A stretch of DNA of 64,000 nt from Yuukianura sp. NJ FZ-2021. Taxonomy: Eukaryota. The translations under genes were made by a program, and so were the position numbers. Positions 14,028 through 48,000 of the stretch are shown here, piece by piece; positions within the stretch are counted from its first letter, which is position 1, and each line of letters opens with the position of its first letter. Location: the NCBI GenBank assembly GCA_046563655.1, contig JAJCTO010000010.1:744001-808000 (forward strand). The letters run 5' to 3'. Below the pieces are notes generated by a model, which was not told where the DNA came from, made no database searches, and saw nothing but the letters and a program-made list of their open reading frames with translations.

Positions 14028-17000
14028 TGTTTTGGCATTTGAGACGCTTCTCAATAGGGAAGCGCCAATTTCAAATTGTCGAAAAGGTGTTAGATATAGG
14101 TTTATCTTTAAGTGTGTAAAAAGTGTGGTTTTTCGAAGAAGATGAGCAGATGAACTGCCACCTTGAGTTCAATTCTGTATTTCAAGCAGCATGGTCTGCA
14201 CTTTGCGATTTCTAATTAAAAATAATCAATTAAATGTAAAGAATTGAAAGTATTAACGTTTTATAATAAAAACTAACAAAAATCCAACATCCGCTATACC
14301 ATCCAAATCACTTCATGGTGCCGAAAGACGGTTTTCGTCGACAAGACAACGAACGACAACCTACTGATCATCAAAGGATGAAGCATGCGGTATAATTGGT
14401 AAAGTCAACTAACGTAACAGTTGACAAGGTGAGTTCAAAGTGTCAATTGAACAAATGTGGTGATGATTTAATCATTATGCTATAATCAATTGTGTAATCG
14501 TGTACTTTGTGTATTCTTGAATCTTTGGTCATGTCATTGTGTTTACTGGCAACAGTCATTGTCTAACTTATCGTGTGTGGCTCTTTTTGAGTAAAATTAA
14601 TCAAAGTTGACAAACTGTTGACCAGGAAGAAAGCCAAAGAATCGTCTTTGGCCATGTCTGACCAAGAACAAGAGAGTAAGGTGGCTGCAGCAAAAGGTCA
14701 AGGTCAGGTCAAGCCGACTGGCTCGAAAACAATGCTGAGCGTGTCACTACCAAGTGTGGAGTCTGAAAATATGCAGAGAATGGTAAAGGCCATTAGAGGT
14801 TTCAACTTTGACCTCCAGTATTTTCAGCAAAAAGTGGAGGAGTACAGCACAACTCCCACCCTTGTATCCAAGCCCAGGATGGCTATGGAAAGGAAGAAAC
14901 TCGAGGGTTTCGAAACAAGGCTAAGTGAATTGCGCAGCGATGTGTACATGAACTGCGACGACGAAACGCAAATACGCGCGCAGGCTGCGGAATTGAATGT
15001 GTGTGACAAGTTTCTTGATGCAATTAATCTAAAATTGATTTCTTTTGAGTCCCAGGTCAGTGGAGGCTCAACATCAGGAAAAATGAAAGTGAACATGCCG
15101 AAACTGGAACTTCCGACTTTCAGTGGCAAATACGAAGACTGGCTTTCCTACAAGGATTTGATCATGACATACATTGTCAACAATCCTGATCTGACTGGAA
15201 GCCAGAAGTTGGGCTATCTTCAACCTACGCTGAAGGGTGAGGCTGAAGACGCGCTCAAGTACTTCGACTTGACCAATGGGACTTTTGAAGAGGCATGGGA
15301 CAGCCTCAAGGAGCGGTATGAAAATCCGCGACAAATTGTATTTTCATTTTTGAAAAATATTGTGCACTTTAAATCAATTCAAAATGAGTCCGCACAAGCA
15401 CTGAGGAAGTTGCTTGACGTGTTTAATCAGTCCATCAGATCACTTCAGGTGTTGAAGGAGCCTGTGGACAAGTGGGACTCGTTTTTGATTTTTTTGATTT
15501 TAGAGAAAGTCTCCAGTGAAACAAAACGTGAGTGGACCCGCCACTTCAAAGGTACGCAGATGCCTAAGTTCAGCGAGGTCAAGGACTTTCTGGAAGATCA
15601 CCTTCGTGGGTTGAATGTCGGCTCAGAAAAATCGGGTCACAGTGAGAAAAAGACTGCTGAGAAACCCACTGAAAAGAAGTCTCACCAATCGTCCTCCAAA
15701 GTTCCATGTCCAAAATGTGGTGGAGAACATTCTCTATTCAAATGTGACCAATTCAACGCCATGGCAGTGGACGAACGTGAGAAATTTGTAAAGTCTAAAA
15801 ATTTATGTTTCTGTTGTCTCAGAGGTGGTCACGGTGAGAGCAAGTGTACTTCGAAATTTAAATGTTCGAAATGTCAAAAACGACACAACACACTGCTCCA
15901 CTATGACAGAAAGCCAAAAGCACCAGCCGTGGATACAAAGGAGGAGAAACCAACCACTTCAACCACATCACTGTACTGTTCGAGTACTCGTGTGATTTTG
16001 GCTACAGCAGTGGTGAGTGTAATGGACTCATTTGGTGATTACCAAAACTGTCGTGTGTTGTTGGACCAAGGTTCAGAGTCCAATTTTATCTCAATGTCGT
16101 GTGTCAAAAAATTGGGGTTGAAAAAGCACCGTGCTAATGTTACCATTACAGGCATTTCAGGAACCCAGGTCGAAAGAGCGTTGGGGGAAACCAACTTTTG
16201 TGTAAAATCGAGACTAAATAATTTTGAAATTAACGTGTGTGCTTTAGTTTTGAACAAAGTTACAGGTTCTCTGCCTTCGTTCATTGTCAAAAATACTGAT
16301 TGGCCACATTTGAAAAATTTGGAGTTGGCAGATCCAGCCTATCTTCAGCCCAGTGATGTGGATATTCTACTTGGCAGTGAATTTGTTGCCCGTTTGAAGA
16401 CTGGCAAGAAGGTACAAAGTGACCTTAATCTTCCCATCGCTGAGGAAACTGAATTTGGGTGGGTCATTTCTGGCCCGGTAAGCACTACAAAAAACGTAAG
16501 TGTCAATCTTTCTACTTCTGTGTGTGAGTCATATGTGAAAAAATTTTGGGAACTTGAGAGTGTCCCAATTCGGCCGGTGTACACTAAAGAGGAGGCACTG
16601 GCAGAGCAACATTTCGTGGTCAACCACTCCAGAACTGAGAGTGGAAGATATGTGGTAAAATTACCTTTCAAAACCGATTGTGTCAATTTGGGTTCGTCAC
16701 GGGACATGGCCGCAAGTCGATTAATGGGAATCGAAAAACGTTTGCAAAAATTCCCTCAACACAAAGACGAGTACCATCAGTTCATGAGAAAATACCAAGA
16801 ACTTGGCCACATGAGTGCAGTGACCAAGTCGGAGGAGGGTGAGGTCATTGGAGAGACCAATTATTTGCCCCACCACTTTGTGTTAAAAGACACAAGTACC
16901 ACTACCAAACTACGAGTGGTTTTTGATGGTTCTGCGAAAACTTCGAATAATGTGTCTTTAAATGAGTGTTTGTTAGTGGGTCCTACTATCCAACCTGATA

Positions 17001-20000
17001 TATTTTCTCATTTGTTGTTTTTTAGGACCAATCAAATTGCACTTAAGGCGGACATTGTAAAAATGTACCGTCAATTCCTCGTGGACAAAAATGACCAGAA
17101 GAAACAACGGATTCTCTGGCGTGACTCACCAAGTGATGAAATTGGTGAATTTGAACTTCAAACGGTGACATACGGCACAAGCTCCGCCCCATTTCACGCC
17201 GTCAGATGCCTTCAGCAACTCGCAGAAGACGAGAAAGGCAAATTTCCAATGGCTGCTGAGGTACTAAAGTCAAATTTTTACGTGGACGACTTGATGGGAG
17301 GAGCCAACAGTGTCCAAGAGGCTAACCAACTCGTGACAGAGCTAGAAGGGCTTCTACGTCGTGGTTGTCTGGAAATTACGAAGTGGGACTCCAATTCGAA
17401 AGATGTACTGAAGTCCATTCCTAAAGTCAACCGAGGTAAAAATGACGTGATTACATGTGATGCTGATTTTGACAGGGTTTTAGGTGTTTGTTGGGACAGT
17501 GGAGGTGATTACTTTCACTTCAAAGGATACACTCCAAAACCGGTGGGCGTGGTCACAAAGAGGACGGTCTTGTCCACTATGTCAAAAGTGTTTGACCCAC
17601 TTGGTTTTTTGTCACCTTTAACTGTCAAAATTAAGGTTTACTTTCAGGTCTTGTGGTCGCCAGTGCAGGGAAAGGAAAATGGAATCTTGTCATGGGACGA
17701 TGAGATTCCGCCTGACCTAGCTGGACAATGGCATGACTATGTCAAAAGTGTCCATGACATAAAAAGTCTAACCATTCCCAGGTTTTTATTCTCTGGTTTT
17801 CAGGAAATTGTCCAAATTCATGGATTTAGTGACGCATCGGAACTCGCGTACTGTGCGGTAGTGTACGTTCGGTCAATTCAGAGGAATGGTCGGGTCACTA
17901 CTAACATCGTTGCTTCAAAAACAAAAGTAGCTCCGATGAAGCAGATCAGCCTTCCGAGACTTGAACTTTGTGGTGCTCTACTTTTGTCCAGACTAATTCC
18001 GAAAGTCATGGAAGCAACTCGTCTACAATGTCCCATCATGGCCTGGACTGACAGTGAAACAGTCCTAAAATGGCTAAGGAACACAAGTGGTAAGTTTGTG
18101 ACATTTGTGGCTAATCGTGTTTCAGAAATACAGGAAGTACTTCCAGTCAGTTCGTGGAATTTTGTTCCTGGAGTGGACAATCCAGCTGACCTTGGTACTC
18201 GTGGAATTTCTGCTGAAGAACTCGTAAGTTCACAATTGTGGTGGTGTGGCCCAGACTGGCTAAAAAATCCAGATTTGCCAGTGTTTGAGTCAGAGGGGAA
18301 AGTAAGTGAGCCCTCTGAACTCCTTGAATTACGAAAGGTAAAGGTGAATCTGACGCTAATTGACCGTGACATGATGAAACGATTTTCGAATTATGTTAGG
18401 CTTAACCGTGCCGTGGCATATGCCATGAGATTTGTTTCAAATTGCAGGAATTTGAAACAGGGGGAGAGGCTTACTGGTGACTTGTCAGTCGAAGAAACTG
18501 ACCGAGCCTTCCTCATGTGCGTCAAAGTAGCGCAAGAAGACGACTACAGTGACGAAATACTGGCCTTGACGAAAAACAATTGCGTGGGGAAAGGAAGTGC
18601 ATTGGAATCGCTACATCCATTTTTAGACAGTCATGGAGTCATGCGTGTTGGAGGGAGACTCCAAAAGTCAGATCTTCCGAGTGACGAATGCCATCCCATC
18701 ATTTTATCAGGTCATAATTATTTCACCAAACTCATGGTAAGACACTATCATCAATTTTATTTACATGCCAATTATCAGTTGTTGTGGGCAAATGTGTCAA
18801 AAAAGTTTTGGATTGTGGGTGCGCGAGTCACAATTCGACAGGTGGTCAGAGACTGCCTAAAGTGCAAAAGACTACGAGCCAAAGCCAGTGAACAACTGAT
18901 GGGAGCACTACCAAAGGCGAGAGTTACTCCTTCTCCGCCATTTACACACTGTGGAGTCGACTATGCAGGCCCCTTTAAGCTTCAAGAAAAATATGGGCGT
19001 GGCAAAAGGCAATTTGATGCCTATTTTTGTGTATTTGTCTGTTTTGCAACACGGGCAATCCATTTGGAACCCGTGACAGACTTGACCATCGTTTGAGCGT
19101 TTTTAGCGACACTGAAAAGATTTATCTCCAGACGTGGGCTTGTGACTGAAATTCATTCTGATTGTGGCAAAAACTTCGTTGGCGCAGCTAACGAAATGAA
19201 AGAGTGGACTAAAATCATTCAAGATTCTAAAGTCGTTGATTTTTTGTGTGTTTCAGGAATAAAATGGACATTCATTCCTCCTGATGCTCCTCACATGGGT
19301 GGACTATGGGAGTCAGGAGTAAAATCGGCGAAGTACCACCTCAGGAGAGTGGTAGGAAACACCACGTTGACGCTGGAAGAGTTCCATACGCTCCTGACAA
19401 TGGTGGAAGCAGTGCTCAACTCTCGGCCGATCTGTGCAAAATCTCGTGACCCAGATGACGTTGAGGCGCTGACTCCTGGACATTTCCTCATTGGAAAGCC
19501 GCTACTCGCCATCCCAGAGCCACCATTGGCCGAAATCAAGGAGCACAGACTGTCGAGATGGCAACGTGTCCAGCAGATGTCTGAACATTTCTGGAATCGC
19601 TGGAAGAAAGAGTATCTCAACCTTCTCCAGCAACGTAACAAGTGGCGAAATGAGGCTGAGAACATCAAAATTGGCGATCTCGTCCTAATCAAAGACGACG
19701 ATACTCCACCGTTGAAGTGGAAACTCGCCAGAGTCACCAAAACATTCCCTGGAGAAGACAACCTGGTCCGATCAGTCGAGGTGAACTTCAAAACAAATGA
19801 AATCGACAAGAAAGGTCAATCCAAAGTCAAGGATCATGTGTTTCTTCGTCCAGTCGTCAAAATTGTCAAGCTACTAGAACCAGAGTAGCGTAAGTCTAGG
19901 GAACATGTGTAAATAATGTAATTCCAAATTCAAAATATTCATTTATTTCATAACTTTAAAAAATCTTGGGTTAAAGTTACATTTAAAATCATAAGTGTTA

Positions 20001-20674
20001 AGTGGCTATTTGATAGTATCAAAACATAGGTGTTTAGGTAAGATGTAGTTTCTAGTTCTATCTCTTTCCAAAATTTCAAATTAGGGGTAAAATCATTTGC
20101 TAAAACACCTTTCGTTCGAGTAGAGTAATTTACTGAACGTAAGGTGACTTAATTTTGGATGTGTGATTGTGTGGGTGATTTTTTGTGTTCTGATCTACTG
20201 GTAGGGTCCAGTAAACGGCAAAATCCAGCCTGAGCAACTGGAAGAAGGCTTCGTCCACCTTCAGCCACCGAATCCAGTAGCATCGGAGCACCCTTCAATT
20301 TTTCAATTTGTGTATATCTAAAATTGGTCACCATTTTTCTTTTGTATTTTTCAAAAATTGAGTGACTCAGTCATTCAATGGAGGGCGGTGTTTTGGCATT
20401 TGAGACGCTTCTCAATAGGGAAGCGCCAATTTCAAATTGTCGAAAAGGTGTTAGATATAGGTATATCTTTAAGTGTGTAAAAAGTGTGGTTTTTCGAAGA
20501 AGATGAGCAGATGAACTGCCACCTTGAGTTCAATTCTGTATTTCAAGCAGCATGGTCTGCACTTTGCGATTTCTAATTAAAAATAATCAATTAAATGTAA
20601 AGAATTGAAAGTATTAACGTTTTATAATAAAATAACAAAACCCAATTCACCGCTCTACCATCCAAATCACTTCA
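14028..20674 (+). mobile_element. Full-length BEL/Pao LTR retrotransposon
   Basis: LTRs 14028-14315 and 20389-20674 (TG...CA); 5-bp TSD TAACT (14023-14027, 20675-20679); PBS TGGTGCCGAAA (tRNA-Phe-like) at 14316; PPT GGAGGGCGG before 20389. Confidence 0.96.
14653..19888 (+). CDS. BEL/Pao Gag-Pol polyprotein with a single in-frame TGA at 19094-19096 in integrase
   Basis: ORFs 14618-19096 and 19142-19888 are in the same frame; zinc knuckles, LLDQGS, YLPHH, YVDD, FSDAS, PRLEL, DYAGP, SDCGKNF, GGLWE motifs. Confidence 0.92.
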
Positions 20675-21289
20675 TAACTCTTGTTTTAACGTTAACAACT
20701 TAACTAATAACCTATTCTTTTTACCATTAAGCCTTGGTGTAATTACCTGTTTACAGGGAACCATTGGTCAAATAAAAATCAAAAACAAAAATCAAGCTTT
20801 GGGTTATCGTTACGTTTGTTAAATGTGGTCGACATCATTTGTGTAAAACTCAGAATGAATTTTCCAATCTAAAAAACAATATTGAATACTACGGAACAAA
20901 CAGAATGAGCACATTAGCCTTCATGGATTGTAACTTTGGTTAAAATAACTATTTGTCATTAATTTCTGTAAATAAAGCTTTCAGTGAATTCAGTAGTTGT
21001 AGTTTTTTTTTATTGTAACTTTTACATTAATTTCAAACAGCGAACTCTTTAGATGCTGTCAACAAATCTTTGAAAATTAAAGATCTTCTCTCAATCGTTC
21101 AAGATTTTGTGCATTCTCCTGAAATTGTTATAGGTTATGAATTATATATGTTAATATGGGTCATGAACTATAGTTAGTAAAAAATACTTTTTTTTTTGTA
21201 AATCATTGTCTTTCAAGAAATAAAAGTTATAAACCTAAATAATGCTCCAAAGAATTTATTCCAATCACGAAGGATAGGAAACTGAAGAA

Positions 21290-22896: not shown

Positions 22897-25800
22897 CTAT
22901 TGTATAATAATGCAGTGGTGAGTTCCACTGTGATCCTCTTCTTCTCTGGCTGGTTCCTCCACTTTTTGAAGAGGGATCTCCTCCCGCTCTTTCTTGGAAT
23001 CAGCTTTTCCACGCTTCCCGCTCTTCTTCTTTGCGCAGCGCCTGCGCACAAGAATTGCTGTCAAAATTCCAAGCATAATTCCAGTGACTGTCCCCCCAAG
23101 TATCCAGGTCCAGTTAGCAGCAGCATGGCGATGGAATTCAAAAACTTTTACAGTTTTTGCTTCCTCCTCGATGTTCCGCTTGTTGTCATTCCAAAATGCG
23201 TCCAACTCCCCAGATATATTTTTCCAATTAATGTGAGGGTTGAGGTGCCAATTAATATGATCTTTTAGGAAAGGGTCTTCCCGCTCCCTAAAAATCATTT
23301 GAAGAACGTTTCCCTTGTATTCGACATCATTCAGGTGAAACGTCAGCGACAACGGCAGAGAGAATACGTTCGGAGGACACTCGATGTTCCGCTTCTTTAT
23401 GGAATACTGACTTCCGGAACAGTAAATGTAGTATTCGTTATCGTAAAACTTAACTTGAATGAATTCCTTCGTGTCACCGTCTACCGGTAAACGACATCCA
23501 TCCAGTTTAAAGTAATGGTCTACAGCTTTAAACGACGAACTGTTTTTGCAATTCGAAAGTGTAGCCAATTCCAGGTTGCTCCTTGGTCGCTCCTTGTGGG
23601 TTTCATACACACAGTCATCATCTACTGACACTGTGGCTAACGTTGGTCCAGCGTATTTCAACTCACAAGTATGAGTTTTGTTCTTGAGCATCAGAGTGAA
23701 ATGATCTGCTTCGACGCGTGTGAGACTTTTGTTGACAGACGGCAATGCGAATTCCATGACAATCTCGTCCCTGGCATGACTCATTTCACAGTGATGAAAA
23801 ATCCCGTACTCGATTGGGCACTCGTCACCACAGGGCAGGGTAAAGTTGAGATATTCGAAGAGGTCAGCGGTAAGCTTCCCTCTGTGCCAAGCCGAGCCAG
23901 TCTCCTTCAGGATCCGTTTCCCCTCCATAAATCTGTTGATGAGGTGAGAAATTATGTACTGTAATTCCACCACCTCCTCTCGGAACAGTGAAAAATCGTT
24001 TCCCAATTTGTCAACTTCTGAGGCCAGTTTTCGAATTTCCTTTTGCAGGATTTCGATCTCTTTTTTATTTACAAAGACTTTCCTTTCGAGCTCGTTGAGG
24101 GCTTCCTTTAATTCGTCGACCTTTGTTTCAATTTCATAAGTCATGGAAACAGCAAAGCCGCCCAGTCCAATGCCGACGCTTGCTAAAGCCACAATAAGGA
24201 CAAAGCCAATTGCTAAAAAAATTTCCCGTTTGTTTTTCTTGCCGACTTCTGCCTTTCTGGGACAGATCGTTTCAAGGTTGTTCAAAAAAATCTCTTCGTA
24301 ACTCTTTTCACAACGTTCTTTCATGAAATTGGCCAAGAGTGGATCAATGCCCGTTAAGGGCATTAGGTCACACGGAGAAATTAATTTAGTTTTCATTGTG
24401 ACCGCCTGGAAACCTGTGATCACTGGATCAAGGCTTTTTCTCCATAAAACCGGACTACCGGTTTTGTAGACGTCGGTGGCTCCACCTATCGTTAAGACAG
24501 TGAGCATGAGAGTCAAAATGCTAAGTGCCACATTTGGTCTTTTAGGAACTACTACTACACTCGACAGTGCTTTTCGCTTGGAACTTTCACACGGATTAGT
24601 CTCCATTCCCATCAGATACCTCTTTTTGACAAAAGTTGCTTTTGGAACTGATTTGGTTAAGATATCAGCGGGTTGTGCTTGATCTGGAAGATGTTCAAGA
24701 CTGACGAGTCTCCGTTCCACCAGCCATCTTATGTAGTGGTGCCTTATGTCGATGTGTTTAGTTTTATCGTGGTATTCTGGATTACGCGCGAGTTTAATCG
24801 CGCTCTGAGAATCTGTCTTAAGGCAAATTCCATCTTCAATTGCTCCTGTAATTCCACATTCTCTAAACATCCGCGTGACCCAAATAGCTTCTTTTCCCGC
24901 GTGGGCCAAGGCTATGTATTCACTTTCAGTACTTGAAAGTGCAATACAGGTTTGACGCTTGCTAATCCAAACGATTGGCGAACCATTGGCAGTGAACAAG
25001 CATCCTGTCGTCGATTTTCGCGAATTTTTGTCGGACCCATAATCCGCGTCAACAAAGCCAAAAATGATTTGACCTTCTTTTGACCTTTCGTAATGAATTC
25101 CAAGGTCCATGGTTCCTTTTAGGTACTGCAGAATTTTCTTGGCTGCATCAAAATGTGACTTTTCAAAATTTGAAAAAAATCTTGCCAAATAGTGCACTGG
25201 ATACGCGATGTCAGGCCAAGTACATCGGGCCAAAAATAGAAGCGACCCAATTAGCTCTCGAAATTCATAATTGGTGTCAGCGGATCGACTGGCTTCCAAT
25301 TGTAGTCCTGGGTTCATTGGAATGTCAGCAGTTTTGCACTCTGACATTTTAAATCGCAGAAGAGTATCTTTGATGTATTTTTGCTGGTGTATGAAAATTC
25401 CTTTTTCATTCTTTTTGATTTCTATTCCAAGAAATCTATCGAGTGGCTGCATGGAGACTTTGAATGTTTTGCTAAGCTCCTTCACTTCTTCTTCATTTTC
25501 CTCTGATGAATCACCAAGAACTAGGCCATCATCAACGAACAGTACAATAAAGGTCACTGACTTTTTCTTTTCCTTTTTGTACACACACGGGTCACTTTCC
25601 AGTGCTTGAAATCCCATTTCCACCAATTTTGCATTGATGGTCACATTCCATGCACGCGGGCCTTGCTTCAACCCATAAAGTCCGCGTTGTAATTTGCAAA
25701 CAAGTCCGTCACCAATTTCAAACCCCTGAGGTTGTTCCATGAATAACTCTTCATTTAACGGGCTGTTGAGGGAAGCAGTGGCGATGTCAAATTGCTTAAC

Positions 25801-26290
25801 ATCCCACGCTTCCGCCGCTGCGAGACTCAACATGATTCTCACGGTCTCGTACCTGCATACTGGCGCAAATGTCTCCTCATAGTCCACTCCTTGAATCTGG
25901 TGAAAACCTTTCACCACAAGCCGGGCTTTGAATTTATTCAAGGATCCGTCCGGATTATTCTTTACTTTAAAAACCCATCGGTTTTTAAGTATTCTTGTCT
26001 TGTTGGGCCTTTTTACAAGAACCCAAGTCTCACTTTCCTGTTGACTGCGCAACTCCGCCTCCATAGCGTCTGTCCATTCGGCAGAATTGTCAGAATTCAT
26101 CGCTTCTTGAAAATTCGAAGGCTCCGAAATTTGATTTCCATGAAGGGCGGAGAATCCAGCTTGAAATCTCTCCACAGGCTTTTTAATTCTTGTGGATCTC
26201 CGCTGTTCCACTGGACCTTCGTCATCCTCATCCTCAATTTCTTCTGCCCAACTCCTCTGGGATGACTCATGACCGCTCTGGTTTCCACTT
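22897..26290 (-). CDS. Copia Pol C-terminal part (RT, RNase H) fused in frame to an envelope/fusion glycoprotein-like domain (~22897-24540)
   Basis: EPSNFQEAM, KARLVVKG, LYGLKQ, FVDD, DADY, SSTESEY, KHIDIR, ADILTK, then hydrophobic signal-like segment, KKNKR plus hydrophobic peptide, heptad repeat, Cys-rich ectodomain, TM helix and basic tail. Confidence 0.92.
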
Positions 26291-26937
26291 TTAGTCTTCT
26301 GGAGACGCATGTCTACGACATGCTGAAGAAGACTATTGATACGACTTTGTCTGTCCGTCCGTAACGTTTTTTAGTACCCTTTGCACTGAAACATTACCTC
26401 CATTATTGACGGGGTGTCCTGTATCGCTCAAGTGTTTTCATTATGTCTACATTCCACTCAAACTGCTATATTAACAATGCAGAATTGTGCGGCTACTTTA
26501 CGTACCCGCAGTATCGTGCCTCCGCAAAACTGTTTTGGTTTCGATTGCACTTAAAGTATTTATAAACAACGGTGTTTTGATCTGGTCATTTTCTGGCAAG
26601 ATGTTTAGTTACGTTGTTAAATTAAGCCTTTTTAGCGGGTTGAAATTCCGGCTTAAATTCATAATATGTAAACAGTGCTTGGTGTGATTCAAATTTGCCT
26701 TTGCATGAAATTTTTATAATTTTGATTTAACACAAGTGATATTCGACTCTATTACTTATGCACTTGATTTAACACATGGTGCACGTATTTTGATTTTAAA
26801 GAAGCAGTATGCTACCCCTGACCCTCAGCGTTCAAATTTTGTGCATGATGCACACCTACATGTAATTATTTTAACGCGTTCACGTATAACACGTTCTGTC
26901 AAAATTTGTGCATATTTGGGCTATTGTGCATTAAAAT

Positions 26938-27070
26938 AATTTTAAAGAGAGCAACAACTGTTCACAGCTCAGGTTGTACAACATTTTGATGCAAACGGTT
27001 TTTCTAAACATTATTTTGATGCAGCTATATTAACGATGTTTGCTAATATTATATTGTCATGGCAACATGA
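26938..27070 (+). repeat. 133-bp direct repeat, copy 1 (copies 2 and 3 at 31290-31422 and 35644-35776), flanking the tandem non-LTR elements
   Basis: AATTTTAAAGAGAGCAAC...TTGTCATGGCAACATGA is the same in three positions. Confidence 0.92.
27053..27066. promoter_or_regulatory. RFX X-box-like motif ATTGTCATGGCAAC (also at ~31405 and ~35759)
   Basis: 12/14 match to the palindromic X-box GTTGCCATGGCAAC, with an intact GGCAAC half-site. Confidence 0.6.
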
Positions 27071-27328
27071 CAAACAACAAACAACAACCACGAAAATTTG
27101 CTCCTCATTTTTCAAGTTTTTTAAGACATTCATTCATCATCTACCAAACTTTTGCTCATATCCTCCGAAGACACTTCGTCTAGTGATCAACTAGTGACAG
27201 GTTTCAAGAAAATACGTTACCACTTCAGCCTGTCCGGACCTGTTTTGTCACTTGGACGTCCAGTCACCGTCAACTATCAAAGTTTTCAACAACAGCGGAT
27301 CCTTCAACTCATTCCCATAGCAACTAAT

Positions 27329-28585
27329 ATGGCTCAACGAAAATTAAAAAATCGAAGCAAAATGAAATCAACATCTATTTCCATGACTCCAGCTCCTGAT
27401 TCTTCATCTGTGCAAACAATGTACAACAGTTTTTCAACAGCCGTTTCGTCTAACGAAAACACGTACAAAACCTCATCAACTCAAGCAGCCGTAGAATTCG
27501 TATCTAAAGTGTCACCAGCTCCAGTTCAGTATGAAGTTTCTTCACCAGTTACTGCATCAAATGGCTTCGGTTCCGACATCGTATCAGTTCCAGCTTCAAG
27601 TTCCTCCGGGTCCCATATTACATCAGTTCCAGCATCAAGTGATTCCGTTCCAGCTTCAAATGACTATGGTTCCTGTATTGAATCAGTTCCAGCTTCAAAT
27701 GACTATGGTTCCTTTCCAGCTTCAAGTTCCTCCGGGTCCCAAATTACATCAGTTCCAGCATCAAGTGATTTCGTTCCAGCTTCAAATGACTATGGTTCCT
27801 GTATTGAATCATTTCCAGCTTCAAATGACTATGGTTCCTGTATTGAATCAGCTCCAGCTTCAAATGGCTTTAGTTCCTGTTTTGAATTAGTTCCAGCTTC
27901 AAGTTCCTCCGGGTCCTTTATTACATCAGTTCCAGCTTCAAATGACCCCAGTTCCTGTATTGAATCAGCTCCAACTTCAAAGGAGTCAGTTCCAGCTTCA
28001 AGTTCCTCCGGGTCCTTTATTACATCAGTTCCAGCTTCAAATGACCCCAGTTCCTGTATTGAATCAGCTCCAACTTCAAAGGAGTCAGTTCCAGTTTCAA
28101 ATGATTCCGGTTCCTGTATTGTACCAGCCCCAGCATCAAATGACTTCGGTTGCCGTACCGCATCAGCTCCAATCACTGTTATTGCTTCAAGTTCATCCTC
28201 AGTCCCAACTACCAATCAACACGTTTCCAGTCCTCCTTGTCTCACTAGAACACTCCAGAATCGCAAAATAACAGATGAATGGATTGCTAATAACATCATT
28301 TCGTCCGCCAGTGGCTCAATTCGAAAATTAGACGTCAAATCCAAATACCATCAGTTTTGCAACTCTCTCAACATTCGTCCAGTCGTTGACACCACCTTCG
28401 GTACCAAACTACGAAAGTTATTCCCTTCGATGTCCACAGTTCGTGCCGGAGGTCGCCGTCATTCCGAACAGTCCTACTCCGGCATTGCTTGGAAGGATGT
28501 TTGCTCGCAATTCCACAGAAGAAGACCTAGGAAGCATTCTCGCAAAACTCAAACCATCGACACACACGATGAAGCACGTTCCTAA
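27329..28585 (+). CDS. N-terminal region of non-LTR protein: Ser-rich repeats plus RFX-type winged-helix DNA-binding domain (~28270-28495)
   Basis: WIANNI...Y..FC....IRPV....FGTKLRKLFP......RAGGRRHSEQSYSGI matches the recalled RFX DBD pattern WL..NY...Y..C....P....FGK..R..F....RRLG.RG.SKY.Y.GI. Confidence 0.75.
   Translation: MAQRKLKNRSKMKSTSISMTPAPDSSSVQTMYNSFSTAVSSNENTYKTSSTQAAVEFVSKVSPAPVQYEVSSPVTASNGFGSDIVSVPASSSSGSHITSVPASSDSVPASNDYGSCIESVPASNDYGSFPASSSSGSQITSVPASSDFVPASNDYGSCIESFPASNDYGSCIESAPASNGFSSCFELVPASSSSGSFITSVPASNDPSSCIESAPTSKESVPASSSSGSFITSVPASNDPSSCIESAPTSKESVPVSNDSGSCIVPAPASNDFGCRTASAPITVIASSSSSVPTTNQHVSSPPCLTRTLQNRKITDEWIANNIISSASGSIRKLDVKSKYHQFCNSLNIRPVVDTTFGTKLRKLFPSMSTVRAGGRRHSEQSYSGIAWKDVCSQFHRRRPRKHSRKTQTIDTHDEARS
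27575..28200 (+). repeat. Coding minisatellite (CAGTTCCAGCTTCAAATGAC.../VPASNDYGSCIES-type units); copy at ~31927-32552
   Basis: Many degenerate in-frame repeats of TCCAGCTTCAA spaced mostly 21-39 bp apart. Confidence 0.85.
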
Positions 28586-31422
28586 AGGTGCAAGGGTCAC
28601 TGCCGCGTCCAGGCTTTCAGACTTCATTGATGAAGTGACTTCAACTAATTCCGCCGAGTCATGGTCAAACCTTTTGCTTTTCCCATTCTTCGCGTTTCGT
28701 CTTCCTAGGCCGACCGTGTCACCAAGCTCACCTCCTGGGTAAAATCCAATATCTGCACCTTGTCACCTTCTTCGGCTCTCAACGTTTCAACATTAATCTT
28801 GGAAACTTCAAGCACTCCACAATCAAATTCAGCCATTCAGTCCCACATTATTCAATCTAAACTTGCTGATGGAGACATTCACGGTGCAGTTCGTATTTTA
28901 TGTTCCGATGACTCAATGGCCAATGAAGATTCTTCTACATTAGACGCTCTTGAACGATTACATCCTCCTCATCCAGTAGCACTCCAGTTTCCAGATCGTC
29001 AACAATCATCTGAAGTTGTCTTCGACGAACTCGAACTGCTAAAATCAATCTCTTCTTTTCCGAATGGTTCGGCCGGAGGTCTCGACTCTCTGCGACCTCA
29101 AGTACTGAAAGAGCTAACTTCAAAAATTACTGGCGATTCCGGTCAAAAACTTCTGTCTTCCATAACGAAGCTTGCAAACCTCATCATTAACAACACCATC
29201 CCTGAAGTAATACGTCCGATCTTCTACGGTGCCTCTTTAATTGCACTCCAGAAAAAAAAAGGTGGGATCCGCCCTATCGCGATTGGATTGACCTGGCGCC
29301 GGATAGCATCAAAGCTTGTCTTATCGAGATCAATGAAAGACATCGTCTCATACCTGAGCCCGGTACAAATTGGGGTAGGAGTCAACAACGGTTCTGAAGC
29401 TGCAGGCCACGCCGCTAGGATCTACGTCAATTCTCCACATTCTTCCAGTAAAGTCATGCTCAAGATTGATTTCAAGAACGCCTTTAACCTCATCAGAAGA
29501 GATAAAATGCTAGATTCTGTTAAATCTCTCATTCCCGACTTCTATAACTTCATCCATCAAGCTTATTCATCAGACTCGAATTTATTTTACGGTTCTTCCA
29601 AAATCAAATCGAGCCTTGGAGTCCAACAAGGCGATCCGATCGGTCCCGCCCTCTTCGCCATCACCATCCAGCCACTGGCAACAGCAATCCAGTCAGAGTT
29701 TAACGTATGGTATCTCGACGACGCAACCATAGCCGACAAGCCGGAAACAGTCCTGAAGTATCTGCAGCATATCACCACCAACGCAGCATCTTTTGGCCTA
29801 CAACTAAACACACAGAAATGTGAGATTATCGTCATCGGTGGCGATGAAATGGAGTCCAGAGCCATCACTAGTTCATTTCTTTCGTTCGCACCTGATATAC
29901 GAGTCTGCAATGAAGAAGACGCCGAACTACTCGGAGCCCCATTATCCAAAGCTTCTGGACGACGGATCTTGAAGATTAAGACCGACGATTTCGACAGACT
30001 TTCGTCTAAGCTGCTAGCTCTTCCGGCTCACGTGGCTTTTTTCTTACTAAGAGCTTCAATTTCGTTTCCAAGACTGACATACTTCCTTCGCTGCGCACCA
30101 TCATTTCTTGAAGAAGACCTACTGAAGGACTACGATGATTCTCTTCGTAAAGTTTTGGAAAAAATTCTCAACATAAGCCTTTCTGAAAATGCCTGGATTC
30201 AAACATCTCTGCCGGTGGCACAAGGAGGTTTGGGAATCCGCCAAGCTAACGATTGCGCTACGCTCTGTTTTTTGGCTTCAATCTTTAGCTGCGCAGACCT
30301 AATCACCTCCTTCCTACCTGGTAACCTATCACCTTTCGATGCATCGTACGACTTGGCAACTTTCAAATGGTCCAACGACGATTTTGATTTTCCATCTAAT
30401 CACAAAGTTCAGAAGGAATGGGAGATATTAAAGTCATCGAAAATTTACACCAGTCTGCTGAACAACTCCACCACTTTGACTGACAAAGCAAGACTAATTG
30501 CTGCCGCTTCTGCTCATTCCGGTGATTGGCTGAAGGCCTTACCCTCTTCACAACTGGGGACTCTTCTATCCAACGAATGCTTCAGAATTTCGTGCTCCTT
30601 GCGTCTTGGCACCAACTTATGTCTACCCCACAAATGTCGCTGTGGTGCAACTGTTAACGAAGACGGTCTTCACGGGCTGAGTTGTCCGAAAAGTGCAGGA
30701 AGACACTCAAGACATGGTTCAATCAACGATATTATTGCTCGAGCCTTTCAAACAGCCGGAGTCCCTAGCCTGAAAGAACCTCCAGGTTGTTCTCGTTCGG
30801 ATGGAAAACGCTCCGACGGCATCACTTTGATACCTTGGAATACTGGACGTTGTTTGGTGTGGGACGTCACTTGCCGAGACACTTATGCCAACTCGTACCT
30901 CTCCATTTCCTCTTCTTCAAGTGGCTATCCTGCCGCTTTGGCTGAAATCCAGAAACACAAAGTGTATCAAGACCTAAATCATCAATTCATCGTCTCCATC
31001 ATTGCTGTTGAAACTTCGGGGTCTTCGGAGCCGAAGGACTAATTCTCATCAAGTCAATTGGTCAACGTCTTGCCGAGGTCACCGGTGAACTCCGATCCAC
31101 CAACTTTTTGCTTCAACGGATTAGCATCGCCATTCAACGTGGCAACTCCGCATCAATTCTTGGCACTCTTCCCCCGGGGAAAGGATTGGACGAAATTTTT
31201 ACCTCTAACTTTTCTCAATATATACTCTAAACCTTTTCAACCTGCCCTAGGCAGGTGTTTGTGAATTTTATAATAAAATATAAAATAAGAATTTTAAAGA
31301 GAGCAACAACTGTTCACAGCTCAGGTTGTACAACATTTTGATGCAAACGGTTTTTCTAAACATTATTTTGATGCAGCTATATTAACGATGTTTGCTAATA
31401 TTATATTGTCATGGCAACATGA

Positions 31423-35643: not shown

Positions 35644-36109
35644 AATTTTAAAGAGAGCAACAACTGTTCACAGCTCAGGTTGTACAACATTTTGATGCAA
35701 ACGGTTTTTCTAAACATTATTTTGATGCAGCTATATTAACGATGTTTGCTAATATTATATTGTCATGGCAACATGAGCAACGCAGTTGGAGGTTGTTTAG
35801 TAAGTTGTTTATTGCTATCAATTATTTTTAAGAAATTTTGTCATTTTGAATTTCTAATTTCAACTACTCAACCTCGACCTTCAATTTTGTTCGAATACAG
35901 TCTACTCTTAAAGATAACTTTGACAATTCTTTGACTCTCATTCAAGTGTATAATTTATAGCTTAATTCTCAGTATTCAATTCTATTTTTGAGTGCATAAT
36001 TTGAAGTTTAGTAAAATTTTATTTATTATCTTCGGGTAAGAATGTTTTTTAATCTCATGGTCTCAAAGTATGCTCAATTACATTTCACTTCATTATTTCA
36101 GATAGAATT

Positions 36110-42034: not shown

Positions 42035-45000
42035 TTATAATAGTCGATTCAGCGTATCTGCCTCAGCAGCTTCAAACCACTCTGACAATTCCTTGGCCAT
42101 GCTGTGATCCCTTCCTACTAAGATCAAATCCCCGGGGTTGCATTCAATCGAGTTGACGCCGTTGTAACTTGAGATCTTCATCAGCTTAAACAGAATTACT
42201 TCAAAGGGAGTGATTTCGTTCATTTCCGCCAATTGGTTCCACAATTTGGCACTGAATTTCCCGGTCTTGTCCACCAGAGTGATTTGTCGAAGCTTACAGG
42301 TGGGAAACTGCCGAATCTCACCAACATCAATCACGAGTCCAGCCATATCGACAAATTGGCCATCGGACATCAACTTGAGATCTTCTGAGTCGATCGGAGT
42401 TAGTTTTACTTCATGCCTCTCTCCTTTGGGCTCGGTAATAGAGGTGGCGTCAGTACTGCTTGCATCAAATGATGCATTCGTCCATTTGTTTCGATTATCC
42501 TTTGGCCGAAGAAGAAAGCCTTCTACTCTGACGAAAGAGTTGACCTGAAATTGGTTATTAAATAACTTTTAATATATTTGAAAATAATAATTATCTAATT
42601 GTTGTGGCTTTTACCACATAGATTTAGAATAACAAATGTACGACATAGACTTTTAGAATAGCATCTACTTTGTAGCCTAAAAATAGGAAGAGTGTTGACT
42701 TTTTGCCTTAGGATATAAGTAGCATCTAACGGTCAACAAAAAGGAAGAATCAACACAACAAGAATAGCATTAGTATAGGAATACAAGTCATAGTCTTTAC
42801 TTACACTTCAATTCATTCATTAAGTCAGATTTTAACTTCGCACTTTTTCAATTCGCAACTTCTCACGATTAAGTTTAAATTAGTAATTAATAAAATCAAA
42901 GTCATAAAATCAATTCAATTGCTCTCCCTTACTGATCGTTTGCTACATATCGCAACATTTTATGGTGCCGAAAGCCGGGACCTTGAGCGGATTCATCGGG
43001 AGACTACATACAACATCAACCGGCGACTTTCGTTTTAAGGTCAAGGTCATTTTAACACTTCCGTTTGGTCAATTGTGTTCGTAGTTTTTCAGACATGGCA
43101 GCAACTAAAACAAGTTTAGCAGATCTTCTGAAACTACGTCAGAGTTTGGGCCAACAGATCCTTATGCACAACAGGGTCATCGCACTATACAATGAGCAAA
43201 CACCAAATCCAACAATCAAAACTGCAGAAAAGGAACTGATCAGAGTCAGGAATGACCTCGACACTCTACACAACAAAATCATCATCGCTACAATTCACGA
43301 TGAAGATATTGAAGATCATTCCAAGACCTACATCGAATTCGTCACAATAATTGGAACAATGAATGAAAAGCTGATGTCAATTCAGCCAGTACCAACTCCA
43401 TCATCATTACCTGGTCCATCAGTTCCTTCAACTTCTGCGCAGTCACATCACCACAATGTCCACTCTTACTTTCCAAAGATGTCCTTACCAACTTTCGACG
43501 GAAAGTATGAAGACTGGCTGACTTTTCGCGATTTATTTCGCAGTACAGTCATCAACAATACCACCTTACCCAACAGTGTCAAGTTCTGGTACTTACACTC
43601 CGCTCTCAAGGGTGAAGCTGCTACTGTCATCAAGGGCACTCCCATCACTGATGACAACTTCCAAGGAGCATGGCAGCTGATGGAGGAACGGTACCATAAC
43701 CGAAGAGAACTCATCTTTACACTAATTGAAAAACTTGTCAATTTCCCAAAACTGAAACATGAAAATTCAACTCAGTTGAGGAAACTGATTGATTGTTTCA
43801 AGGAGTCTCTCACACAGTTAGAGACCCTCAACGAACCAACAGAACACTGGGATTTCATCATCGTCTATCTTCTAAAAGAAAAGATGGATCCAGACTGCCG
43901 CCGTGACTGGAGCAAGCAACTAAAGGGCTCAGAGGTTCCGAGCTTTTCCGATACAAAGGAATTTCTGGAAAATTACATCCGAGGACTCAAATCCAATGGT
44001 TCATCAGCGTCCTCTGGATCTTCTGGCCAAAGCAAGGCTCACTCCAGTTTCACCGAAAGCAAGTCAAATGAACAAAAACATAAGTTCACTTGTCCACAGT
44101 GCCAAGGTGAACATGGCTTGTTCAAATGTGAAAAGTGGCTCCAATTGTCAGTAAAAGACAGATTCAATTTTGTAAAGATGAAAAGTTTGTGCACAAACTG
44201 TCTCAGTTCCAAGCATAATGTAGGAAAGTGCCAGTCCAAGTACAGATGCCGGACATGTCAAGAGCCACACAACACTCTACTTCATTTTGACACGGCTAAG
44301 GCTCACTCTACGTCACAACAGAATGATGTGGAGACTTCAACATTGGCAAATCATTGCTCCACCTCCAAAGTACTGTTAAGTACTGCCGTTGTCAAACTGA
44401 TCGACTCAGCAGGCGAATTCCAAGAATGTCGTATCCTGTTGGATCAGGGGTCAGAATCCAATTTCATCTCTGATCGTTGTGTCAACAAACTTGGACTTGT
44501 GCGTAAGAAATCTAATGTAAACATTGTAGGAATTTCAGGTTCCAATGCTGGGAAGGCATTAGGTCAAGTCACATTTGACCTATGCTCACGCATCACAAAT
44601 TTCAAAATTCAAGTTAATGCACTGATTTTGCAAAGAGTCACAGGTTTTTTGCCCTCGTTCAAAATCAATCCGCAGAAGTGGACTCACCTCATGGGGATAC
44701 AATTGGCAGATCCCAATTACACAAATCCCAGAGACGTGGACATAATTCTCGGAGCTGAGTTCACCGCCTCCATCACACTCAGTGGCAAAATCATCGGTCC
44801 GCCTCAGACTCCAATTGCACAGGAGACAACATTTGGTTGGGTCATCTCAGGGCCAACGGGTACAACCAGTCAACCCACTGTTCACGTCAACCATGCCAGT
44901 GTTGACATTTTACAAAAATTCTGGGAACTGGAGGAACTACCGAAGCGACCGAATTACACAATCGAGGAGCAGTTTTGCGAGGACCATTTCGTCGCTACGC

Positions 45001-48000
45001 ACACTCGAAATGAGGAGGGAAGGTACGTCGTAAGGTTGCCACTTAATGAAAACATTTCCAAATTAGGTGACAGCCGCGACATCGCATTGCGCAGACTCCA
45101 GCAAGTGGAAAAGAGGCTACGACTAAATCCAATTCATCATCCAGAATACATCAAGTTCATGGATGACTATCAAAAATTGGGACACATGGAAGTAGCGACA
45201 GAGACGCAACTTCCACCCGGGTCAAAGGTCGTCTACCTCCCACACCACTTTGTTCTCAAGGAGTCCAGCACCACCACTAAACTCCGAGTCGTTTTTGACG
45301 GTTCGGCCAAGACATCAACTGACATTTCCCTTAACCAATGCCTTCAGGTGGGACCAACGGTACAAGGTGACATTTTTACCTTACTCCTACAGTTCCGTAA
45401 GTACCCAATTGCACTAAAGGGTGATGTAACCAAAATGTACCGACAATTTTTGGTACATAAAAATGACCAATGTTTACAATCGATTTTGTGGCGAAAGTCT
45501 CACCTTGACCCAATTCAGGAATTTAGGTTGAAGACAATCACCTATGGTACAGCCTCAGCTCCTTTCTCCGCAGTCAGATGCCTACGTCAACTTGCAATCG
45601 ATGACGGGGACAAATTCCCATTGGCTAGAAACGCACTTCTCAACGGAGGCATTCATTGCCACACTCAAGCGTTTTGTCTCCAGACGAGGATTGCCAGTCG
45701 CAATGTACAGTGACTGTGGCTCCAACTTCGTCGGAGCAGAGCGAGAGCTACGGGAATTGGTTCAAAACCAAAAATTCAACTCAGCAGTCACCGATTTTTT
45801 AGGTGATCGAGGTGTCCAGTGGCACTTCAACCCACCCTCTGCACCAAGTCAAGGAGGGTATTGGGAAGCTGGTGTCAAAAGCACCAAGTACCACCTACGT
45901 CGCATCATTGGTACCACTACGCTCACTTTAGAAGAGCTGTTCACTGTCCTCTGTCAGGTTGAGGCAGTGTTAAATTCTAGACCAATTTGTCCTCTGTCTC
46001 CAGATCCTAATGACTTGGAACCATTAACACCAGGTCATTTTCTTATTAATAATGCTCTTTGTGCTATTCCAGATCCTGACTTGACCAACCAAAAGGAGAA
46101 CAGACTCTCCAGGTGGCAAAGAACCACTCAAATGGTCCAGCACTTCTGGACTCGTTGGCACAAGGAGTACATTAACTCCCTTCAAGAAAAGAACAAGTGG
46201 AGGAGTCAAAACCGGAACATTGCAGTCGGTGACTTGGTCATCATCAAGGAAGATGACACTCCACAACTCAAATGGCGCATGGGCAGAGTTTTGGAAACGT
46301 TTCCTGGCCCAGACGGACTTGTTCGTGTCGTCAAACTGAAGACGAACAAGGACTCAGTCAAACGTCCAGTCTCAAAAGTCTGCGTTTTGCTGCCAGCAGA
46401 AGATCAAAACAGTGATGATCCTGCCATTTACCGCATGAAACGACAACTACCAAATTAGTCAATTCGCCAACCACCATTCGTACCACGTTTGTATCCCAAA
46501 TTTACTTTAACTGTACTTTAACTTTAATTTTAATCAAACATTAATTTTAGAGTAGTTAGTTCAATTTTCTCAATTTTCAAATCATAACTTAACTTTAATT
46601 TTAGCCTTTCAACAATTCAATTTTCAAAACAATTTTTAATTTTAGTTTACTTTTCATAGGTTAACTGAGAGACACATCATGCAGAGCCCGTTTTCAACTT
46701 TAAAATTCAATTTAGCACTCAAAAGTGCAATCTACATGCATTTTGGATCTGTGCCCTTCAATTCTCCTGCTGTCTGTCACCTTTCAACAAGGTCATGCAA
46801 ACGGCAAAATCCTGTCAGCTCCAGCAGGAGAGGGACTTAGTCCACCCCTCAGCCACCGATGTTGAAGGGCCCTTTCTTTCAAAACATTCCCCGCACAGAT
46901 CCTCAATTCATGTAGTTTTCATTTTCATTTTCATTTTTTGCAAAATTAGACTTAGGTCTAATTTGGGGCCTGGCATGTTGTGGCTTTTACCACATAGATT
47001 TAGAATAACAAATGTACGACATAGACTTTTAGAATAGCATCTACTTTGTAGCCTAAAAATAGGAAGAGTGTTGACTTTTTGCCTTAGGATATAAGTAGCA
47101 TCTAACGGTCAACAAAAAGCAAGAATCAACACAACAAGAATAGCATTAGTATAGGAATACAAGTCATAGTCTTTACTTACACTTCAATTCATTCATTAAG
47201 TCAGATTTTAACTTCGCACTTTTTCAATTCGCAACTTCTCACGATTAAGTTTGTAAGGATACGAATTTTCCAGTGGCCAATTATGGGCTACAAATCCGGC
47301 TCTAATCTGAAACCCGCCCTTTCCGTTCGCTATCCCTTACGTTTACTTGACGGGCCCTTAGTAGTTTCACCTTAAGAAAGGGTTTCTTCTTTCTTAAGGG
47401 CCGATAGAAGGCACTTCACACTCCAGAAGGGTCAACAACCTGAGAATTTGCCCGTAGATTCGGCCTCTCTCCTCGCAGTAGTGACCTTGACCTCTGACCT
47501 TTGACTTTCGACTCCGACAGAGAAAATGACAACTCGATTCGTGAAACCGTTAACCAATCAGAAAGCTCTCCAGTTAATCAATCTTAATTGCTAATTGACT
47601 TTAACTCCAAAACTCCAATTAATGACTCGTTAATTTGAATTGAATTTGAAATGATTGAAAGAAATTGAGAAATTCCAGACGTCAGCTGATTCGAAGATAA
47701 ATAAACGTAAACACGAATGACCTTTGACCCAATTGAGTGTGTGAGCAAAACAGAGTTCAAATACCAGAGACAATCCTAATTAGAAAACCCGCGTACGCGT
47801 GCGTAGCGTTAATTGATTGAATTAATTGGGAAAAATCGATAAAAACTGAATTAAACTGAGAAAAACTGATTTGAAACCGATTTAAATTGATGGAAAACTG
47901 ATTTAAAACAATTTACAAGTTAATGCGCGTTGAATGAAACAAAAAGGAAATTGATTTACGCGCAGTTCCCGTCACTGAAGGTGAACAAAAGAACAGAAAA

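What the first reader, a model, noticed from the sequence alone, without database searches (positions are those of the whole stretch)
20195..20280. Covarying multi-stem RNA motif shared by the 3' UTRs of two divergent BEL elements (second copy 46783-46866)
Seen: the otherwise unalignable 3' UTRs share AAACGGCAAAATCC...GTCCACC...TCAGCCACCGA. Paired regions change together: outer stem CTACTGG/CCAGTAG vs TTCAACA/TGTTGAA; hairpin 1 TCCAG/CTGGA vs TCCTG/CAGGA; hairpin 2 GAAGG/CCTTC vs GAGGG/CCCTC. GGT/ACC and GGC/GCC stems, the AAAC and AAAA linkers and the loop GTCCA are invariant. Both sit on a longer basal stem (GGTGAC...TTTTGGATGTG with TATATCTAAAA...GTCACC, ~20143-20332; GGATCTGTGC with GCACAGATCC, ~46745-46902). 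Inference: a conserved structured RNA (ribozyme, nuclease-blocking, export or packaging element). It does not fit the hammerhead, HDV or twister cores as I recall them.
Basis: partly seen in the sequence, partly recalled or inferred. Interest (0 to 1): 0.78.

Follow-up and report, generated by a model that had tools for sequence, protein, structure and literature searches.

The report
Conserved folded RNA in BEL retrotransposons
Two distantly related copies of a BEL/Pao jumping gene carry the same small folded RNA shape at the same spot just before their end repeat; it is probably a control element not described before, but only two copies could be examined.

Summary
Two BEL/Pao LTR retrotransposons in the window are only 49-58% identical in protein. 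Both carry an ~86-nt motif (20195-20280; 46781-46868, + strand) in the 3' UTR, ending 108 and 107 nt before the 3' LTR. Its 14-mer is the longest exact match between the two whole elements, longer than the primer-binding site. A covariance model built from copy 1 alone finds copy 2 at E=2e-12 and nothing else in 64 kb. All 23 proposed pairs form in both copies. Seven pairs changed on both sides, against 0-1 in slid controls. The fold is an outer helix, two invariant 3-bp helices split by a 9-nt bulge, and a three-way junction with two hairpins and invariant A-rich joints. It caps a 160-190-nt domain that is much more stable than shuffles (z about -4.5). Rfam 15 has no match, and no paper describing it was found. 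Weaknesses: there are only two sequences, there is no RNA data, and no relatives were reachable in the collections. Contigs from two organisms show only that similarity between related families is kept around the motif. My best reading is a cis-acting protein-binding RNA domain of the genomic RNA, serving export, stability or packaging. A ribozyme is unlikely.

The parts
20195..20280 (+). Motif copy 1 (element 1). P1 20195-20201/20274-20280; P2 20205-20207/20267-20269; 9-nt bulge 20208-20216; P3 20217-20219/20264-20266; AAAA joint 20220-20223; P4 hairpin 20224-20228/20238-20242; P5 hairpin 20244-20248/20258-20262 with loop CTTCGTCCA.
   Evidence: (119.7 bits).
46781..46868 (+). Motif copy 2 (element 2). 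P1 46781-46789/46860-46868; P2 46791-46793/46855-46857; bulge 46794-46802; P3 46803-46805/46852-46854; AAAA 46806-46809; P4 46810-46814/46825-46829; P5 46830-46834/46846-46850 with loop ACTTAGTCCAC.
   Evidence: (54 bits, E=2e-12, model built from copy 1 only), and 58 (the core-only minimum-energy fold equals the proposed fold, -28.1 kcal/mol).
20143..20332 (+). Whole folded domain of copy 1. Basal stem 20143-20163 with 20313-20332 (contains G-U pairs). P1 extension 20185-20194 with 20282-20291. The motif sits at the apex.
   Evidence: -67.1 kcal/mol, z -4.57, 0 of 200 shuffles as stable. Minus strand z -3.49.
46745..46902 (+). Whole folded domain of copy 2. Basal stem 46745-46754 with 46893-46902 (10 perfect pairs), enclosing the motif.
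   Evidence: -55.1 kcal/mol, z -4.48, 0 of 200 shuffles. Minus strand z -2.83. In this context an alternative inner fold is 6.9 kcal/mol better than the shared one.
14028..20632 (+). BEL/Pao element 1. LTRs 14028-14271 and 20389-20632 (the repeat continues with differences beyond these). PBS-like TGGTGCCGAAAG at 14316. ORFs 14618-19096 and 19142-19888 (pol is read in two pieces). Purine run GGAGGGCGG at 20380-20388.
   Evidence: (Peptidase_A17, DUF1759, DUF5641, RVT_1, Integrase_H2C2).
42600..47252 (+). BEL/Pao element 2, internally deleted (no RT, A17 or integrase N-terminal part). LTRs 42600-42876 and 46976-47252. PBS-like TGGTGCCGAAAG at 42963. ORFs 43065-45713 and 45544-46458.
   Evidence: (DUF1759, DUF5641, rve).

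Best explanation
This is a real folded RNA domain on the sense strand of the BEL/Pao genomic RNA, and selection has kept it. An ~86-nt core sits at the tip of a 160-190-nt stem. The core has a closing helix (P1), two invariant 3-bp helices (P2, P3) split by a 9-nt bulge ending in AAAC, and a three-way junction with invariant joints (AAAA, A). The junction bears one hairpin with a free loop (P4) and one with a conserved loop, CUUnGUCCA (P5). The stems change freely as long as they still pair, while the unpaired joints and one loop are frozen. That pattern fits a scaffold that presents fixed single-stranded letters to a trans-acting partner, most likely a protein (the element's Gag or a host factor).

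The core lies between the last ORF and the polypurine tract, at the same distance from the 3' LTR in both elements. It is also kept in a deleted, non-autonomous copy. I therefore infer that it acts in cis on the full-length RNA, most likely in post-transcriptional handling: nuclear export or stability, leading on to packaging. Shown: conservation, the fold, the strand and the position. Inferred: protein binding, and which step it serves.
For: Context. Both copies lie in BEL/Pao elements whose proteins are 142/246 (58%) and 359/731 (49%) identical.

Conservation. The motif's 14-mer is the longest exact match between the two whole elements. The next collinear match is the 13-mer at the primer-binding site.

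Position. The motif ends 108 and 107 nt before the 3' LTR, although the letters in between do not align.

Fold. A model built from copy 1 alone finds copy 2 at 54 bits, E=2e-12; the next hit scores 16 bits, E=0.08. Of the 23 pairs, 7 changed on both sides, 1 changed on one side and still pairs (U-G), 15 never vary and 0 are broken. The slid controls give 0-1 pairs changed on both sides and 29-59% of cells paired. RNAalifold returns the same 23 pairs. P1 helices in the real flanks compared with shuffled flanks: 7 bp (1085/20000) and 10 bp (7/20000).

Domain stability. z is -4.57 and -4.48 on the + strand against -3.49 and -2.83 on the - strand. Several stems need G-U pairs that would be A-C on the other strand.

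Not coding. The spacing between the conserved blocks differs by 1 nt twice.

Other organisms. Contigs laid from organisms A and B show that similarity to element 1 resumes at 20195 or 20224 after unalignable UTR, and ends at 20286 in 2 contigs. None of the 40 best-supported variant letters shown lies in 20181-20361, though all bins are covered.
Against: There are only two independent sequences, so no statistical covariation test is possible. The shuffle control reaches the observed value in 6/500, and with n=2 it has little power. P2 and P3 (3 bp each) never vary, so they are untested. The alignment used for the counts was fitted to the model.

For the core alone the folding z-scores are modest: -1.65 and -2.18, with 8 and 6 of 200 shuffles as stable. 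In copy 1 an alternative pairing (CCAGU of the bulge with ACUGG) is 1.8 kcal/mol better. In copy 2's 171-nt context another fold is 6.9 kcal/mol better.

One contig of organism A carries a shortened variant. By its 30 shown letters it lacks separate P4 and P5 hairpins.

There is no evidence on transcripts, binding partners or function. No relative was found in any collection, so it is unknown how widely the motif occurs in BEL/Pao.
Confidence: 0.55

Rival explanations
1. It is a reverse-transcription or cyclisation element. The unpaired bulge of the motif pairs with the 5' leader of the same RNA. This brings the two ends together for initiation or strand transfer, as CYC5:CYC3 does in Ty1, or as the tRNA bridge to 3' UTR segments does in Ty3.
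For: The distance to the PPT and 3' LTR is fixed in both copies. In element 1 the bulge CCAGUAAAC has a perfect 9-nt complement in its own leader at 14541-14549; 17 of 2000 shuffled leaders match as well. Element 2's own bulge variant has 7-nt complements at 42937 and 43061. Swapped pairs give only 5-6 nt. The precedent is described in PMC4974528 (passages read).
Against: The element 2 matches are at chance level (221/2000). The leader sites are not at corresponding places in the two elements: ~225 nt after the PBS in element 1, but 20 nt before or 98 nt after it in element 2. The whole-motif test for element 1 is only 23/500. No host tRNA sequence was available to test a tRNA bridge.
Confidence: 0.15
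2. It is an exoribonuclease-resistant RNA. The junction fold stalls a 5'-3' exonuclease and leaves a stable small RNA made of motif, PPT, U3 and R.
For: It is a compact three-way junction of 70-90 nt in a 3' UTR with invariant joints, and it sits on the sense strand. This resembles flaviviral xrRNAs only in general outline (recalled).
Against: No Rfam xrRNA family matches at the gathering score or at E<=10. I found no conserved ring-closing pseudoknot by eye. The one candidate, UGGAU upstream with the GUCCA loop, competes with the covarying basal stem. No paper found with the term 'LTR retrotransposon' and an xrRNA term is about xrRNAs in such elements. The three listed papers holding all three terms are prime-editing reviews (15 of 147 listed, listing only).
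Confidence: 0.08
3. It is a self-cleaving ribozyme of a new class.
For: It is a small junction fold with invariant unpaired letters. Retroelements of other classes do carry ribozymes (recalled).
Against: No ribozyme family matches at E<=10. Cleavage between pol and the PPT would remove U3-R from the genomic RNA, and that end is needed for the first strand transfer (established retroelement replication scheme). The junction strands (AAAA, A or none, A) do not resemble the hammerhead core as I recall it.
Confidence: 0.03
4. There is no RNA function. The shared block is either a patch exchanged by recombination between the two families or a DNA-level site, and the stems are a coincidence.
For: There are only two copies. 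The conserved blocks could be binding sites read as DNA. P2 and P3 never vary.
Against: A recent exchange would leave the whole patch alike. Instead, perfect blocks alternate with fully changed but still pairing stems: 7 pairs changed on both sides and 0 broken. P1 is 6-7 letters different yet pairs in both copies. The closing basal stems also differ in sequence and still pair.
Confidence: 0.12

Closest known systems
Constitutive transport element (CTE) of simian type D retroviruses, and similar export elements of simple retroviruses
   Same: It is a cis-acting folded RNA placed between the last ORF and the 3' LTR of the unspliced genomic RNA. It is a long stem that presents conserved unpaired letters. 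(Position and features are recalled. CTEs as export elements of simple retroviruses are stated in the abstract of PMC4829213, seen in the listing.)
   Different: There is no sequence likeness. The two identical internal loops in rotational symmetry that define the CTE are absent: no direct repeat is shared by the two domains. The fold here is a three-way junction. There is no evidence of export-factor binding.
Ty1 CYC3 and the 3' UTR segments of the Ty3 bipartite primer-binding site
   Same: These are cis elements in the 3' UTR of LTR retrotransposons that are needed for reverse transcription through contact between the RNA ends (PMC4974528, passages read).
   Different: Those are short linear complementarities, not a folded junction. 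Leader complementarity here is weak and not positionally conserved.
Flavivirus-type exoribonuclease-resistant RNAs
   Same: It is a 70-90-nt three-way junction in a 3' UTR with invariant junction letters.
   Different: There is no match to any Rfam model. No ring-closing pseudoknots were identified. The host element is a retroelement.
tRNA-like structures
   Same: It has a 7-bp closing helix, two 5-bp hairpins, and a P5 loop containing UUCGUCC / UUAGUCC.
   Different: ARAGORN finds no tRNA in the window (0 genes), and no Rfam tRNA match appears at E<=10. It has no D arm, and 11 letters separate P5 from the closing strand.

Membership tests
Rfam self-cleaving ribozymes (hammerhead, HDV-like, twister, twister-sister, pistol, hatchet, hairpin) | Match to the family covariance model | tested here: not met
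   There are 0 matches at the gathering score over 64 kb. No ribozyme family appears among the 3 and 4 matches with E<=10 around the two copies.
Rfam self-cleaving ribozymes | Site-specific self-cleavage | not testable with these tools
   This needs an in vitro assay.
Flavivirus-type xrRNA | Match to the Rfam xrRNA models | tested here: not met
Flavivirus-type xrRNA | Pseudoknots that close a ring around the 5' end | tested here: inconclusive
   Checked by eye only. UGGAU (20156; 46744) could pair with the GUCCA loop in both copies, but it never varies and it competes with the covarying basal stem.
Flavivirus-type xrRNA | Resistance to Xrn1 | not testable with these tools
   No RNA run holds the stretch.
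Retroviral CTE | Position between the last ORF and the 3' LTR | tested here: met
Retroviral CTE | Two copies of one internal-loop motif in rotational symmetry on a long stem (feature recalled) | tested here: not met
   No direct repeat is shared by both domains.
Retroviral CTE | Binding of the NXF1 export receptor | not testable with these tools
   -
Ty1 CYC3-type end-to-end pairing | Complementarity between a 3' UTR segment and the 5' leader, kept through coupled changes | tested here: inconclusive
   Element 1 has 9 nt (17/2000 shuffles). Element 2 has 7 nt (221/2000). The sites are not at corresponding places.
tRNA-like structure | Cloverleaf detected by ARAGORN or the Rfam tRNA model | tested here: not met

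The most novel reading that the evidence does not exclude
The motif is the first defined cis-acting RNA domain of the BEL/Pao (Belpaoviridae) lineage. It would be a new class of three-way-junction RNA, conserved across divergent families because a specific partner reads its frozen joints. Within that reading, two bolder options remain open. Either it closes the genome into a circle through bulge-leader pairing, or it blocks exonucleases and releases an LTR-bearing small RNA.
Probability: 0.3. Interest if true: 0.7.

Novelty: new variant of a known kind. Interest (0 to 1): 0.55.

Why it matters
BEL/Pao elements are abundant in animal genomes, yet my searches of the paper library found no folded RNA element described for them, and no Rfam family matches this motif. 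A motif as well conserved as the primer-binding site, with compensated stems, would give a handle on how these elements export, stabilise, package or copy their RNA. It would also give a sequence-and-structure signature for annotating BEL/Pao 3' ends and their non-autonomous derivatives.

Tried and rejected
No whole genome is held for the window.

Searches of the collections found no relative.
- Viral contigs: the strict pattern gave 0. The relaxed pattern gave 2 loci, L002 and L003, which score 7.8 bits or less with model R2 and are chance matches. Protein queries confirmed 0 relatives out of 5 and 78 pattern matches.
- Metagenome contigs: 1 hit, L001. It is a GC-rich contig with bacterial-style ORFs, and its pattern site does not score with R2, so it is a chance match.
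- Prokaryote genome contigs: the pattern gave 0. The protein query confirmed 0 relatives out of 67 pattern matches.

Earlier findings of this scan held nothing relevant.

Sequencing runs: 6 runs are listed and no RNA holder is listed. Laying the contigs gave no per-copy sequences, and 449 further variant rows were not shown. A larger alignment therefore could not be built.

Inside the window, a third and a fourth BEL fragment (1-3807, minus strand) have no 3' UTR. No third motif copy was found with either model with filters off.

Motif strings in the paper library gave only unrelated hits, apparently primer sequences, in 14 papers judged by title only.

A tRNA-bridge model could not be tested because no host tRNA sequence was on hand. 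That the PBS looks like the tRNA-Phe 3' end is recalled, not tested.

Pairing of the motif's 5' half with the PBS region is good in element 2 (-20.8 kcal/mol) but has no counterpart in element 1, so I dropped it.

Full report
What is there. The window is a nest of mobile elements. Two of them, both on the + strand, are BEL/Pao LTR retrotransposons.

Element 1 has LTRs at 14028-14271 and 20389-20632. Its ORFs carry DUF1759, an aspartyl protease, RVT_1, Peptidase_A17, Integrase_H2C2 and DUF5641. Element 2 has LTRs at 42600-42876 and 46976-47252. It is an internally deleted derivative that keeps DUF1759 and the integrase core/DUF5641 end.

The two are distant relatives: 359/731 (49%) identical in the Gag-to-RT part and 142/246 (58%) in the integrase C-terminal part. 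Both have the same primer-binding start, TGGTGCCGAAAG (14316; 42963).

The observation. The motif lies in the 3' UTR, roughly 305-325 nt after the last stop codon. It ends 108 nt (copy 1) and 107 nt (copy 2) before the first base of the 3' LTR. The sequence in between does not align.

The motif core is the best local alignment of the two UTRs. It scores 47, against a mean of 21.8 and a maximum of 32 in 200 shuffles. Its 14-mer AAACGGCAAAATCC is the longest exact match between the two complete elements. The next collinear match is the 13-mer at the primer-binding site. So this non-coding block is kept as tightly as the one non-coding sequence in these elements whose function is known.

The spacing between the conserved blocks differs by one base at two places. 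That excludes a conserved reading frame.

The fold. It finds copy 2 at 54 bits (E=2e-12). The next best hit scores 16 bits (E=0.08) and lies inside a Gypsy pol region. A model built from both copies finds no third copy either.

On the resulting two-row alignment, all 46 pair cells are standard pairs. Of the 23 pairs:
- 15 never vary;
- 1 changes on one side and still pairs (U-A to U-G);
- 7 change on both sides and still pair (5 in P1, 1 in P4, 1 in P5);
- none is broken.

Sliding the partners by 1-3 columns leaves 0-1 such pairs and 29-59% of cells paired. RNAalifold predicts the same 23 pairs on that alignment.

The closing helix P1 is 7 bp in copy 1 and 10 bp in copy 2. Shuffled 15-nt flanks do as well in 1085/20000 and 7/20000 trials.

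The core sits at the tip of a larger domain closed by a basal helix: 20143-20163 with 20313-20332, and 46745-46754 with 46893-46902. The 5' strand of that helix is partly conserved, and its 3' strand differs yet still pairs. These domains are far more stable than shuffles on the + strand (z -4.57 and -4.48, 0 of 200 each). They are less so on the - strand (z -3.49 and -2.83). Several helices need G-U pairs. The RNA that folds is therefore the sense transcript.

Limits of that evidence. There are two sequences only. The shuffle control reaches the observed values in 6/500 trials and has little power at n=2. The alignment was fitted to the model. P2 and P3 are invariant, so they say nothing either way.

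The core alone folds only modestly better than shuffles: z -1.65 and -2.18. Copy 1 has an alternative pairing that is 1.8 kcal/mol better, in which the bulge's CCAGU replaces the P4 5' strand. In copy 2's 171-nt context, an alternative that uses UCUCCUGCUG (46763-46773) is 6.9 kcal/mol better. Neither alternative is shared by the other copy.

Relatives elsewhere. No genome is held for the window. Pattern and protein scans of the viral, metagenome and prokaryote collections gave nothing but three chance matches, none of which scores with the model.

Six public runs hold part of element 1's 3' end, and none is RNA. I laid contigs of four of them on 19142-20700 at 80% likeness or more: organism A twice, organism B, and one metagenome. 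All 30 bins were covered in the three organism runs.

In related families, similarity to element 1 is lost in the first part of the UTR. It resumes at 20195 (one contig, X1) or at 20224 (one contig each in X2 and X3). In two X1 contigs it stops at 20286, six bases after the motif. Organism B has a 205-nt contig covering 20209-20413 with 6 differences.

None of the 40 variant letters shown lies within 20181-20361, but 449 further rows were not shown. This is therefore only a hint that the motif is an island of conservation. One X1 contig carries a shortened version which, by the 30 letters shown, lacks separate P4 and P5 hairpins.

What it is not. Rfam 15 gives no match at gathering scores over the window. 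At E<=10 around either copy it gives only irrelevant weak matches. So it is not a catalogued ribozyme, xrRNA, tRNA, SRP RNA or other family. ARAGORN finds no tRNA. The rotationally repeated internal loops that define the retroviral CTE (recalled) are absent.

Paper searches found no description of a folded RNA in BEL/Pao UTRs (listings only). The motif strings occur only in unrelated papers, apparently as primers. Papers outside this library, and supplementary files, were not seen.

How it most likely works. The stems are free to change provided they pair, while the joints (AAAC, AAAA, A, GA) and the P5 loop are frozen. That is the signature of a scaffold that presents fixed unpaired letters to a partner.

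Three things point to a role in cis on the full-length RNA: the place (after the last ORF, before the PPT), the fixed distance to the LTR, and retention in a deleted copy with near-identical LTRs. I rank a protein-binding platform for export, stability or packaging first.

An end-to-end pairing role in reverse transcription comes second. The precedents are Ty1 CYC5:CYC3 and the Ty3 3' UTR primer segments (PMC4974528, passages read). Element 1's bulge has a perfect 9-nt complement in its own leader (17/2000 shuffles). Element 2's matches are at chance level (221/2000), and the sites do not correspond between the elements.

An exonuclease block is possible but has no specific support. Self-cleavage is unlikely because it would sever U3-R from the genome.

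Verdict. The reading 'conserved structured RNA' is supported within the limits of two copies. The function is open. It is a new motif of a known general kind, a cis-acting 3' UTR RNA of a retroelement. It is worth a covariance-model survey of animal genomes, which could not be run here.

Noticed in passing
window 14694-14706 and 43037-43049: The two BEL elements share an exact 13-mer, AAGGTCAAGGTCA (two AGGTCA units), in the leader or start-of-ORF region. It is the second-longest exact match between them. The related AAGGTCA also occurs at the 5' edge of motif copy 2.
   Followed up: no
window 26935-35940: An element is repeated in tandem with a 4352-4354-nt period. Its first ORF has an RFX DNA-binding domain (27152-28585) and its second ORF a reverse transcriptase (28760-31042; again at 33112-35562). 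An RFX domain in a retroelement ORF1 is unusual. The first ORF also contains 39-126-nt internal repeats (family D1).
   Followed up: no
window 1-3807 (minus strand): There are two more BEL/Pao fragments. One (1298-3807) has RT, Peptidase_A17 and integrase zinc-domain ORFs. The other (1-537, running off the window) is a Gag N-terminal part very like that of element 1. Neither has a 3' UTR inside the window.
   Followed up: partly
window 47251-55564: A Gypsy-type element on the minus strand has LTRs at 47251-47550 and 55265-55564 (99% identical). It begins exactly where the 3' LTR of BEL element 2 stops matching its 5' LTR, so it appears to be inserted into that LTR.
   Followed up: partly
window 36110-41673: Helitron-type ORFs are present: Helitron_like_N and a PIF1 helicase, in several pieces. 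A Copia-type RT (RVT_2) lies at 22897-26310 on the minus strand.
   Followed up: no
window 14272-14315 versus 20633-20677: The two LTRs of element 1 are almost identical for 244 nt. They then differ at several places in the last ~45 nt before the primer-binding site. I have no explanation.
   Followed up: no
window 46763-46773 with 46823-46833: In copy 2 only, an upstream UCUCCUGCUG run can pair with the 3' strand of P4. This gives an alternative fold 6.9 kcal/mol more stable than the shared fold in the 171-nt context. It could be a switch or an accident.
   Followed up: partly
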